Below are positions 12,001 to 15,000 of a stretch of DNA of 64,000 bases, piece by piece. The position numbers were made by a program. This DNA comes from Escherichia coli (GTDB lineage: Bacteria; Pseudomonadota; Gammaproteobacteria; Enterobacterales; Enterobacteriaceae), in NCBI RefSeq assembly GCF_024502345.1, contig NZ_JALDNN010000003.1; one strand, written 5' to 3'. Numbering within the stretch: the stretch's first letter is position 1; each line of letters starts with the position of its first letter.

Positions 12001-15000
12001 CAAAGATTCTCGGTAATACAGGCATCGAGGTACTTCGTGTCGCCAAGGAGTCGCTTAATGACAGCCAGCTGGTTAGCCGCAGACTGAATCAGCGGATAGC
12101 CATTCACGGCACGATGAATACCTGAGTGGAATAACGAACGAGCCTTTCCAATCTTTTCCCGGGTTGCGTCCATTTCCATATCGATAACAGACTGACGCGC
12201 AACATTAATAGCATTGCCGGATAACTCCGCGAAGCTAACCAGAGGCTTATTCATAAAAAACTCCTTCCAGGTATGTGAGCTTATTATATCAATACGGACT
12301 TTGCCCCAAACAACCCGACTCGAAATATTTTGGAAATTACTCTAATAACTAAAAATGGCACCCGGAAAATAGAATGAATTTATTTTAAGCTTGCCGAACA
12401 TGGCTGGCGGCGGAATTAAATTTGGGTAATGACTCCAACTTATTGATAGTGTTTTATGTTCAGATAATGCCCGATGACTTTGTCATGCTGCTCCACCGAT
12501 TTTGAGAACGACAGCGACTTCCGTCCCAGCCGTGCCAGGTGCTGCCTCAGATTCAGGTTATGCCGCTCAATTCGCTGCGTATATCGCTTGCTGATTACGT
12601 GCAGCTTTCCCTTCAGGCGGGATTCATACAGCGGCCAGCCATCCGTCATCCATATCACCACGTCAAAGGGTGACAGCAGGCTCATAAGACGCCCCAGCGT
12701 CGCCATAGTGCGTTCACCGAATACGTGCGCAACAACCGTCTTCCGGAGCCTGTCATACGCGTAAAACAGCCAGCGCTGGCGCGATTTAGCCCCGACGTAT
12801 CCCCACTGTTCGTCCATTTCCGCGCAGACGATGACGTCACTGCCCGGCTGTATGCGCGAGGTTACCGACTGCGGCCTGAGTTTTTTAAATGGCGGAAAAT
12901 CGTGTTGAGGCCAACGCCCATAATGCGGGCGGTTGCCCGGCATCCAACGCCATTCATGGCCATATCAATGATTTTCTGGTGCGTACCGGGTTGAGAAGCG
13001 GTGTAAGTGAACTGCAGTTGCCATGTTTTACGGCAGTGAGAGCAGAGATAGCGCTGATGTCCGGCAGTGCTTTTGCCGTTACGCACCACCCCGTCAGTAG
13101 CTGAACAGGAGGGACAGCTGATAGAAACAGAAGCCACTGGAGCACCTCAAAAACACCATCATACACTAAATCAGTAAGTTGGCAGCATCACCGAAAATAA
13201 AATAGAGAGAGTTTTCAATCCGCATGACTTTAAAAAAGACAATTTTTAGAAATAAGCCGGATAAAAAAATAGCTTTATCCGGCACTCATATTACAACCAG
13301 TTCTTCCGCTTAAAGTACAGATACGGTGCCAGGCCCGCGAGGATCATAAAGATAATCGCGGCAGGGTAGCCGAAGCTCCACTTCAGTTCTGGCATAAACT
13401 CAAAGTTCATGCCATAGCTGGAAGCAACGAGCGTCGGCGGCAGGAATACCACGGATACCACCGAGAAGATTTTGATGATGCGGTTCTGCTCGATGTTGAT
13501 AAAACCCATTGCCGCCTGCATCAGGAAGTTCACCTTCTGGAACAGGGATTCGTTATGCGGCAGCAGGGATTCGATATCTCGCAGGATTTCACGCGCCTGC
13601 TCCAGTTGCCCACCCGGTAAACGCGCTTTACGCACCAGGAAGTTGAGCGCGCGCTGGGTATCCATCAGACACAGGCGAACTTTCCAGCCGATATCTTCCA
13701 GTTCCGCCAGCGTGGAGAGCGCCTCGTCGTACTCATCGCCCTGATGCCCTTCCATAATCACCCGGCTCAACTGCTCCAGGTCGCTATAGATATTTTCAAT
13801 TTCATCTGCCAACTGTTCGATTTTGGTTTCGAACAGATCCAGCAGCAACTCGTAGGCGTTACCGTCTACCATCGACTGGCTACGGGCACGCATACGATAC
13901 AGACGAAAAGCGGGCAGTTCACGCTCACGCAGAGTAAACAGACGACCATCACGGATGGTAAATGCCACAGTGGAGTTACCGGCGTGATCTTCCGCATCTT
14001 CAAAGAAGAAGAAGGAGTGAATATGCAGGCCGTCGTCGTCTTCAAAGAAACGTGCCGATGCTTCGATGTCTTCCAGTTCCGGGCGGGTTGCCAGGCTCTG
14101 GCCAAGTTCAGATTGTAAGCGCAGTCGCTCGTCGTCGTCCGGTTCGACAAGATCAATCCATACTGCATTTACAAGGGGTTGTGACTCTTCGACTTCCAGC
14201 CGGGTCAGTCGGTTATTTTCCAGTTGAAATGCGCTCAGCATGACCGGGACTCCCAATGCTTAAAATATCGGACAGTTCGGTGGGCACACAGAAACAAATT
14301 GGGTTTCAGACCATTAAACAGCCTGACTCAGCGCGACGGGAAAAATTGAGGTCGCTGACAACCGCTAAGGCTATCAGCAAAAAGGGATAGCCTTAGGAGT
14401 TGATCCTGGATGACAGGATAGTGAGCCAGTATCTACTGGGTGTGTCCAAGGCGAATGTCCTCTTAGAGTGATCGTGCGCGCATGTTACGCCAGCAAAATT
14501 TTGCCGTCAACACGCAACAGAACACCACAGAACAATAGTTGAACTTCGCGCTTTTTGGTACTCGTCAAGGTCGCTAACAGGATAAAAAAATCCCACATCC
14601 AGGACCTATAATGGCGCATCAGCTACTCATTGGTAAAGGAATGATCACCTTGAATCTCAAACGGATTTTTCTCGCCCTCACCTTACTTCCCTTGTTTGCT
14701 GTTGCCGCTGATGATTGCGCACTCTCAGATCCGACGCTGACCGTACAGGCGTATACCGTTAATCCTCAAACAGAGCGGGTGAAAATGTACTGGCAAAAAG
14801 CCAATGGCGAAGCGTGGGGAACGTTACATGCTCTGCTGGCGGATATTAATAGTCAGGGTCAGGTGCAGATGGCGATGAACGGCGGCATCTTAAATTTGAC
14901 GGTTTTTGATATAAAATATAGAAAGAAGGAGGTTTTCTGAATACCTCCTTCACTGGCGCTCAGTTCGAGAATACGTTAACGCTGTACCGTTTACCGAGCA

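What the first reader, a model, noticed from the sequence alone, without database searches (positions are those of the whole stretch)
12416..14898. IS1 copy A lacks a target duplication and the same 9-mer reappears at the far end of the captured corA fragment
IS1 copy A is flanked by TTAAATTTG on the left and GAAAATAAA on the right, so it is not a simple insertion. The segment to its right is chromosomal-type corA plus a truncated neighbour, and exactly where that homology ends (14890-14898) the 9-mer TTAAATTTG recurs, preceded on both sides by GGCGGC. Thus IS1 plus about 1.7 kb of chromosomal DNA is bounded by a direct 9-bp repeat, consistent with IS1-mediated mobilisation of adjacent host DNA into the plasmid rather than two independent events.
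Basis: seen in the sequence. Interest (0 to 1): 0.5.

Follow-up and report, generated by a model that had tools for sequence, protein, structure and literature searches.

The report
Decayed IS1 composite transposon carrying corA
The 9-bp repeat is a real insertion scar, but it was made by a two-ended IS1-corA-IS1 transposon that later lost one IS1 copy, an ordinary way for a transposon to become stuck in a plasmid.

Summary
IS1 (12425-13192) has unlike flanks. E. coli chromosomal DNA (corA, ysgD, 5' part of yigE) runs from 13193 to 14889/14890. TTAAATTTG sits at 12416-12424 and at 14890-14898. IncHI1 plasmids without the insert carry a single TTAAATTTG exactly where the two flanks meet, so the repeat is a true target-site duplication.

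The unit that transposed was not "one IS1 plus adjacent DNA". It was a 3,242-bp composite transposon, IS1-corA-ysgD-yigE'-IS1, with inverted IS1 copies. This composite has perfect 9-bp duplications at three sites. One is the same IncHI1 site with the same TTAAATTTG (pSD134209-1).

The window differs from that composite by a 777-bp deletion: the yigE-side IS1 (768 bp) plus 9 bp. R27-type plasmids carry the central segment in the other orientation and also lack 777 bp.

Among 57 PLSDB plasmids carrying this yigE end, the one-IS1 form occurs only at this IncHI1 site (14 + 27 records). The two-IS1 form is found in many contexts. The far end of the unit shows no resemblance to an IS1 end.

This is a decayed composite transposon, closely analogous to Tn6330 (ISApl1-mcr-1). 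The IS1 was probably lost by abortive copy-out transposition. It is a new member of a known kind, of modest interest.

The parts
12416..12424 (.). Left copy of the 9-bp target-site duplication, TTAAATTTG (IncHI1 backbone)
   Evidence: Empty sites in pSGB23 and pO111_1 hold a single copy.
12425..13192 (-). IS1, 768 bp: the retained, corA-side copy ('IS1a') of the composite. IRR at 12425-12447, IRL at 13170-13192; transposase genes on the - strand.
   Evidence: IR scan. ORF 12440-12943 matches NF033558 IS1 family transposase at 143.8 bits against a cut-off of 100.
13193..14890 (.). Captured E. coli chromosomal segment, the passenger of the composite transposon
   Evidence: 97-99.9% identical to E. 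coli chromosomes over exactly these coordinates. The same segment lies between two IS1 copies in L003-L006 and L011-L013.
13291..14241 (-). Intact corA (316 aa), magnesium/cobalt transporter
   Evidence: TIGR00383 corA equivalog, 382.8 bits against a cut-off of 200.75, full length. Annotated as corA in the records.
14393..14449 (-). ysgD small ORF
   Evidence: Coordinates transferred from the annotation of chromosome L007; the 1698-bp match has no length difference.
14611..14890 (+). 5' fragment of yigE (93 of 254 codons). The ORF reads on into backbone sequence as far as 14940.
   Evidence: yigE annotation in L007; ORF 14611-14940. Native yigE continues ...GGCATCTATGATGAAAGC.
14889..14891 (.). 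Deletion joint where the yigE-side IS1 ('IS1b', 768 bp) plus 9 bp (TATGATGAA) was lost. The exact position is ambiguous within the 2-bp microhomology CT.
   Evidence: Comparison with the intact composite ...GGCATCTATGATGAA|GGTGATGCTGCC...CATTACC|TTAAATTTG in pSD134209-1 and elsewhere.
14890..14898 (.). Right copy of the 9-bp target-site duplication, TTAAATTTG
   Evidence: In pSD134209-1 this copy abuts the IRR of the second IS1.

Best explanation
The segment 12416-14898 is a decayed IS1 composite transposon.

Step 1 (shown by relatives). Two IS1 copies in inverted orientation, with their IRL ends facing inward, came to bracket 1,706 bp of E. coli chromosome (corA, ysgD, first third of yigE). 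This made a 3,242-bp composite that transposes as a unit using its two outer IRR ends.

Step 2 (shown). The composite inserted into an IncHI1 backbone and duplicated TTAAATTTG.

Step 3 (inferred). Homologous recombination between the inverted IS1 copies flipped the central segment. Alternatively, the composite inserted a second time in the other orientation.

Step 4 (deletion shown, mechanism inferred). The IS1 next to yigE was lost in a 777-bp deletion, which is IS1 plus 9 bp. This left one IS1, the passenger and both copies of the target duplication. The most likely mechanism is abortive copy-out transposition. The cleaved IRR end of IS1b attacks its own strand one target-duplication length (8-9 nt) outside its IRL, leaving a flank 3'-OH at ...GGCATC(T). 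Synthesis from that 3'-OH then switches template to the DNA just beyond the IRR tip instead of copying the IS.

The result is an immobilised, intact extra corA gene on the plasmid.
For: 1. The empty site has one TTAAATTTG in pSGB23 and pO111_1. About 120 further IncHI1-type plasmids align across the site in the same way (90-95% identity band).

2. IncHI1 plasmid pSD134209-1 has the full composite at the same site: GGAATTAAATTTG|IS1|TTCATCATAGATGCC...corA...TTTATTTTC|IS1|TTAAATTTGACGG.

3. The composite has perfect 9-bp duplications elsewhere: ATAAGAATG in the E. coli ST540 chromosome and GCCGACGGC in the IncHI2 plasmid pATCC43845. It occurs in many chromosomal and plasmid contexts.

4. The composite keeps 8-9 bp more native yigE (ATGATGAA) than the window does, so it cannot derive from the window form.

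5. Census of the yigE' end in PLSDB: 57 records = 14 window-type + 27 R27-type + 10 composite junctions + 6 native yigE. The one-IS1 form is found only at the IncHI1 site. Among complete E. coli genomes there are 4 window-type and 1 R27-type records, all of plasmid size, against 177 records with the yigE'|IS1b junction.

6. R27 has the unit in the opposite orientation at the same site, also missing 777 bp, here G + IS1 + TTCATCAT.

7. The right end has no IS1-end resemblance: 9/23 or 3/23 matches at the real boundary, and about 16% of random positions score 9 or more.

8. [quoted passage not shown] IS1 forms circles and excises at a low basal rate that IEE stimulates (bioRxiv 10.1101/2023.06.07.543989).
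Against: - No IncHI1 plasmid with the two-IS1 composite in the window's orientation was found, so the flip is inferred.
- Two lineages must have lost IS1b independently by near-identical deletions. This is plausible for a geometry-constrained reaction but has not been demonstrated for IS1.
- In R27 the joint needs the breakpoint to lie 1 bp outside the IRR tip, or else a later G-to-A change.
- A third decay product (L014, which lacks IS1a) breaks exactly at the IRL tip rather than 8-9 bp outside it. IS1 loss therefore does not always follow one geometry.
- IS1 sequence polymorphisms are mosaic and do not trace the history.
Confidence: 0.85

Rival explanations
1. One-ended or surrogate-end transposition. 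A single IS1 together with 1.7 kb of adjacent chromosomal DNA moved as one 2,466-bp unit, using the IS1 IRR and a cryptic end in yigE. It inserted into the plasmid with an 8-9-bp duplication, once in each orientation (window and R27).
For: - Both the window and R27 can be read as the same 2,466-bp unit flanked by perfect 8-bp repeats offset by 1 bp: TAAATTTG and TTAAATTT.
- A simple in-place inversion cannot interconvert the two forms (worked out).
- A short GATGC.GCC match to IRL lies near the end.
- The region attracts IS1: pSGB23 has another IS1 about 60 bp away.
Against: - The unit is found at no other site in 57 plasmids or in the E. coli genome set.
- It would need three independent hits on the same 9 bp of a plasmid of about 200 kb, since the composite is there too.
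- In the correct register the far end matches the IS1 IR no better than random sequence.
- It does not explain why the end lies exactly one duplication length from where IS1b sits in the composite.
- Any deletion of IS1b plus k bp of the duplication automatically leaves an apparent (9-k)-bp repeat, so the 'perfect 8-bp repeats' are uninformative.
Confidence: 0.07
2. Aberrant transposition direct from a composite donor. The transposase paired the outer IRR of IS1a with a cut one duplication length outside the IRL of IS1b. This excised IS1a plus the passenger as a unit and inserted it directly, so the second IS1 was never present in these plasmid lineages.
For: The right breakpoint lies 8-9 bp outside the position of IS1b's IRL tip. 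That is where strand transfer is expected during circle formation (PMC5821093).
Against: - The resulting circle would carry only one IS1 end at its junction and has no known route to integrate with a clean duplication.
- Such products should land at many sites, but they are seen only where a full composite is also seen.
- It again requires repeated hits on the same 9 bp.
Confidence: 0.05
3. Chance repeat. An IS1 insertion and a separate illegitimate recombination brought in corA, and the two 9-mers are coincidental.
For: The 9-mer is AT-rich, and three copies in 64 kb is not unusual in itself.
Against: The empty site shows the flanks overlapping by exactly this 9-mer. The full composite carries the same duplication.
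Confidence: 0.01

Closest known systems
Tn6330 (ISApl1-mcr-1-pap2-ISApl1) and its single-ended decay products (Snesrud et al. 2018, PMC5821093)
   Same: - A composite transposon that captured chromosomal DNA.
- One-IS derivatives still flanked by the duplication made by the two-IS parent.
- The full composite and the empty site are both found in near-identical plasmids.
- The deletion is about the length of the IS, with 1-2-bp (there 1-4-bp) joints.
- The same earlier debate over whether a pseudo-end makes the one-IS form mobile.
- The outcome is an immobilised passenger gene.
   Different: - The IS family is IS1, not IS30. The flanking IS copies are inverted rather than direct.
- The duplication is 9 bp rather than 2 bp, which makes the scar unambiguous.
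- The deletion is the IS plus 9 bp in both lineages, rather than scattered around the IS length.
- The passenger is a housekeeping cation transporter, not a resistance gene.
- Only one site is known to have decayed in this way.
Classical IS1 composite transposons (Tn9 with direct IS1 copies; Tn1681 with inverted IS1 copies flanking the heat-stable toxin gene). Cited from my own knowledge.
   Same: Two IS1 copies mobilise the DNA between them and generate a 9-bp duplication. The inverted arrangement resembles Tn1681.
   Different: The passenger is corA-ysgD-yigE'. I found no name or description of this composite in the searchable literature. The window copy has lost one IS1.
Transposase-dependent IS excision via the copy-out (bridged or figure-eight) intermediate, including IEE-stimulated excision (Kusumoto et al. 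2011, as reviewed in bioRxiv 10.1101/2023.06.07.543989)
   Same: IS1 is among the IS that form circles and excise. The breakpoint one duplication length outside the IRL matches the expected flank 3'-OH.
   Different: No experiment here. Transposase or IEE dependence of this deletion is untested. Classical precise excision removes the IS plus one of two identical duplication copies, whereas here the two flanks of IS1b were unrelated sequences.

Membership tests
IS1 (IS1 family insertion sequence) | 768-bp element with the canonical 23-bp terminal inverted repeats IRL and IRR | tested here: met
   Exact IRR at 12425-12447 and IRL at 13170-13192; length 768 bp.
IS1 (IS1 family insertion sequence) | Encodes the IS1 transposase (InsA/InsB) | tested here: met
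   NF033558 transpos_IS1, 143.8 bits against a cut-off of 100.
IS1 (IS1 family insertion sequence) | Simple insertion flanked by its own 8-9-bp target duplication | tested here: not met
   The flanks of copy A are TTAAATTTG and GAAAATAAA. Copy B meets this feature with GAAATACCG.
IS1-based composite transposon | Two IS1 copies bracketing the passenger DNA | tested here: not met
   The window has one copy only. Relatives with the same passenger have two inverted copies (L003-L006, L011-L013, L015).
IS1-based composite transposon | The whole unit is flanked by a 9-bp target duplication, with an empty site that holds one copy | tested here: met
   TTAAATTTG at 12416-12424 and 14890-14898. Single copy in pSGB23 and pO111_1.
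IS1-based composite transposon | The two-IS unit is found at several unrelated sites, each with its own duplication | tested here: met
   ATAAGAATG (E. coli ST540 chromosome), GCCGACGGC (pATCC43845), TTAAATTTG (pSD134209-1).
Decayed (single-ended) composite transposon, Tn6330-type | The full composite is present at the identical site, with the identical duplication, in a near-identical backbone | tested here: met
   pSD134209-1. Flanks are 99.9-100% identical over 1 kb on each side.
Decayed (single-ended) composite transposon, Tn6330-type | The difference from the composite is a deletion of about one IS length with a very short joint | tested here: met
   777 bp against 768 bp. Joint microhomology is CT in the window and T in R27 (derived).
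Decayed (single-ended) composite transposon, Tn6330-type | The single-ended form does not occur at other sites (it is not itself mobile) | tested here: met
   All 41 single-IS1 plasmids in PLSDB and 5 in the E. coli set are at the IncHI1 site; 57 = 14 + 27 + 10 + 6. A metagenome scan gave no hits and is therefore uninformative.
Decayed (single-ended) composite transposon, Tn6330-type | IS loss depends on the transposase (abortive copy-out) | not testable with these tools
   Inferred only from the breakpoint lying one duplication length outside the IRL, and from the published model.
One-ended / surrogate-end transposable unit | An IS-end-like inverted repeat at the far boundary, in the correct register | tested here: not met
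   3/23 or 9/23 matches at boundaries 14890 and 14889. 16% of random positions score 9 or more.
One-ended / surrogate-end transposable unit | The unit is found at several sites, each with its own duplication | tested here: not met
   Only one site, in two orientations.

The most novel reading that the evidence does not exclude
The one-IS1 unit was never a deletion product. Instead, IS1 transposase pairs the outer end of one IS1 with a cut one duplication length outside the inner end of the other IS1. This directly excises and inserts 'IS1 plus passenger' as a new kind of one-and-a-half-ended transposition, and it hit the same AT-rich hot spot in both orientations.
Probability: 0.07. Interest if true: 0.6.

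Novelty: new member of a known kind. Interest (0 to 1): 0.3.

Why it matters
It explains a puzzling structure in the classic IncHI1 plasmids R27 and pHCM1: an IS1 with no duplication of its own, sitting next to a chromosomal corA.

It identifies an active IS1 composite transposon that has spread a second corA copy to many E. coli chromosomes and plasmids. I found no description of this composite in the searchable literature.

It also gives a clean natural example, with an unambiguous 9-bp scar, of a composite transposon decaying to a stranded passenger gene. This extends the Tn6330 (mcr-1) paradigm to IS1.

The recurrent loss of IS1 plus 9 bp is a testable footprint of the proposed bridged intermediate of IS1 transposition.

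As a practical point, a one-IS structure flanked by a direct repeat should not be read as evidence of one-ended mobilisation.

Tried and rejected
1. Simple in-place inversion between the palindromic AAATTT cores of the two repeats. The predicted junctions do not match R27 (worked out).

2. Microhomology recombination between IS1's GGCAGCATC and yigE's GGCGGCATC. This would leave ACC at the joint, which is absent.

3. A surrogate IS1 end in yigE. There is no better-than-random match in the correct register.

4. Tracing the history through IS1 polymorphisms, looking for a chimeric IS1 as proof of the flip. The 19 variable sites are mosaic among all copies, evidently homogenised by gene conversion, and are uninformative.

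5. Backbone flank SNPs, to show common descent of the corA-positive plasmids. The flanks are essentially identical in all forms, including the empty-site plasmids.

6. A metagenome scan for the one-IS1 end in new contexts. Zero hits, not even the known form, so it is uninformative.

7. The empty site for the chromosomal variant that lacks IS1a (L014). Its two flanks are not contiguous in any complete E. coli genome, so that rearrangement cannot be reconstructed.

8. Literature searches for a prior description of this element. These found only a passing mention that corA presence varies among R27-like plasmids. Turlan and Chandler 1995 could not be opened.

Full report
**What is in the window**

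- The window is an IncHI1 plasmid of the pHCM1/R27 group. The region 11400-16000 is 99.8-99.9% identical to pHCM1 (NC_003384.1) and to 13 other plasmids.
- IS1 copy A is a complete 768-bp IS1 at 12425-13192, with IRR on the left and IRL on the right. It encodes an IS1 transposase.
- Its flanks differ: TTAAATTTG on the left and GAAAATAAA on the right.
- To its right, 13193-14890 is 97-99.9% identical to E. coli chromosomes over exactly those coordinates.
- This segment carries an intact corA (13291-14241, - strand; TIGR00383 at 382.8 bits) and ysgD.
- It also carries the first 93 of 254 codons of yigE (from 14611, + strand).
- TTAAATTTG recurs at 14890-14898. The T at 14890 belongs both to native yigE (…GGCATCTATGATGAA…) and to the 9-mer, so the breakpoint is ambiguous by one base.
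- The shared GGCGGC is coincidental. The two copies have different spacing, and one is backbone while the other is yigE.

**The 9-mer is a true target-site duplication**

- Three copies of the 9-mer in 64 kb is not significant on its own (1.39 expected).
- The proof is the empty site. In pSGB23 and pO111_1 the sequence reads …GGCGGCGGAATTAAATTTGACGGTTTTTG…
- The window's left and right flanks align to it, overlapping by exactly the 9-mer.
- About 120 other IncHI1-type plasmids align across the site in the same way.

**What actually transposed**

In other replicons the same chromosomal segment lies between two inverted IS1 copies:

[IRR-IS1a-IRL]-GAAAATAAA…corA…ysgD…yigE'…GGCATCTATGATGAA-[IRL-IS1b-IRR]

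The total length is 3,242 bp.

This composite carries perfect 9-bp duplications at three unrelated sites:

| Duplication | Replicon |
|---|---|
| ATAAGAATG | E. coli ST540 chromosome, between ymiC and yciX |
| GCCGACGGC | IncHI2 plasmid pATCC43845 |
| TTAAATTTG | IncHI1 plasmid pSD134209-1 |

- The third case is at exactly the window's site. It reads GGAATTAAATTTG|IS1|TTCATCATAGATGCC…corA…|IS1|TTAAATTTGACGG.
- The composite also sits in many other chromosomal and plasmid contexts.
- Among complete E. coli genomes, 133 records carry the IS1a|corA junction and 177 carry the yigE'|IS1b junction.
- The composite retains 8-9 bp more native yigE than the window does. It therefore cannot have been derived from the window form.

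**Relation of the window to the composite**

- The window equals the composite at this site, with the central segment in the opposite orientation to pSD134209-1, minus 777 bp.
- The missing piece is TATGATGAA + IS1b. Because of the 2-bp microhomology CT, it can equally be written ATGATGAA + IS1b + T.
- R27, and 26 other plasmids with the same junction, have the pSD134209-1 orientation minus G + IS1b + TTCATCAT, which is also 777 bp.
- The two one-IS1 forms cannot be interconverted by a simple inversion, so they are separate products.
- The central segment of a composite with inverted IS copies can flip by homologous recombination. This is the most economical link between the two orientations, but I did not find the predicted two-IS1 intermediate in the window's orientation.

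**Distribution test**

In PLSDB the last 120 bp of the yigE fragment occur in 57 records:

| Form | Records |
|---|---|
| Window-type junction | 14 |
| R27-type junction | 27 |
| Composite yigE'\|IS1b junction | 10 |
| Native yigE, on chromosome-like records | 6 |

- Every one-IS1 copy is at the single IncHI1 site. The two-IS1 form is in IncHI1, IncHI2, IncR, IncC and IncF contexts.
- Among complete E. coli genomes there are 4 window-type records and 1 R27-type record, all of plasmid size.
- The one-IS1 unit therefore behaves as immobile.

**Surrogate-end test**

- Read inward from 14889 or 14890, the right boundary matches the IS1 terminal repeat at 9 or 3 of 23 positions.
- About 16% of random window positions score 9 or more.
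- The GATGC.GCC resemblance that first caught my eye is out of register by 2-3 bp.
- A one-ended mechanism therefore has no end to work with.

**How the IS1 was probably lost**

- The closest precedent is Tn6330. Its one-ISApl1 and zero-ISApl1 mcr-1 structures were shown to be decay products of the composite.
- That was shown by the same three-way comparison of composite, single-ended form and empty site. The deletions had about the length of the IS and joints of 1-4 bp (PMC5821093).
- The proposed mechanism is abortive copy-out transposition. [quoted passage not shown] A template switch then bypasses the IS.
- For IS1 the duplication is 8-9 bp (PMC12428005).
- In the window the yigE-side breakpoint lies exactly 8-9 bp outside the position of IS1b's IRL tip. 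The other breakpoint lies at the IRR tip (0-1 bp outside).
- R27 fits with 8 bp and 1 bp. This geometry accounts for the repeated 777 bp.
- IS1 is known to form circles, and it excises at a low basal rate that IEE stimulates (reviewed in bioRxiv 10.1101/2023.06.07.543989).
- This step is inference, and I give it roughly even odds.
- A chromosomal derivative that lacks IS1a (L014 and about 60 related genomes) breaks exactly at the IRL tip instead. IS1 loss is therefore not always of this type.

**Verdict**

- The direct repeat does mark one IS1-mediated capture event. However, the vehicle was a two-IS1 composite transposon, and the present structure is what remains after one IS1 was deleted.
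- This is a new member of a known kind, a decayed composite transposon.
- I found no name or description of the IS1-corA composite in the searchable literature.
- Interest is modest. It tidies up a feature of well-known plasmids and offers a clear natural footprint for IS1 excision, but it does not challenge current understanding.

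Noticed in passing
L001 (pSGB23, NZ_CP023167.1) 2459-3226, corresponding to about window 12356-12364: An independent IS1 sits about 60 bp to the left of the corA insertion site, with its own 9-bp duplication TAAAAATGG. At least three IS1-type insertion events fall within about 70 bp of this intergenic AT-rich stretch, so it may be a regional IS1 hot spot.
   Followed up: partly
window 28663-29430: IS1 copy B is a plain insertion with a perfect 9-bp duplication, GAAATACCG. It is a useful internal control.
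   Followed up: yes
window 26623-26631: A third copy of TTAAATTTG lies elsewhere in the window. It is not associated with any IS end and is most likely chance.
   Followed up: partly
L014 (E. coli O114:H49 chromosome NZ_CP024240.1) 2330-4818: This variant of the composite lacks the corA-side IS1. Foreign DNA (downstream of a chromate transporter gene) is joined exactly at GAAAATAAA, the former inner tip of IS1a. About 60 complete genomes match both flanks of this structure. The two outer flanks are not contiguous in any genome, so a larger rearrangement was involved.
   Followed up: partly
L008 (pFC745, CP063685.2) 1852-1890: In this IncC/NDM-7 plasmid the IS1a inner end abuts ttcaatccgc instead of gaaaataaaatagagagagtt. 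That is a 21-bp deletion adjacent to the IS1, with the IS retained. Both IS1 copies in this locus are about 6 bp shorter than 768 bp.
   Followed up: no
L003, L004, L005, L009 (right of IS1b): In several plasmids (IncR, IncHI1B, IncHI2, IncF/HI1B) the composite lies next to a betT/betU-type choline transporter gene. In pATCC43845 it is inserted into an IS5-family element. This suggests co-travel with another IS1-associated osmoprotectant module.
   Followed up: no
window 14611-14940: The truncated yigE reading frame continues across the deletion joint into backbone sequence, giving a 109-aa chimeric ORF. RefSeq records with the identical junction annotate a hypothetical protein there. It is probably meaningless.
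   Followed up: no
IS1 copies in window, L002-L006, L011-L013: 19 polymorphic positions are distributed mosaically among 18 IS1 copies. The two copies within one composite are often more alike than orthologous copies in different replicons, which is consistent with frequent gene conversion between IS1 copies.
   Followed up: partly
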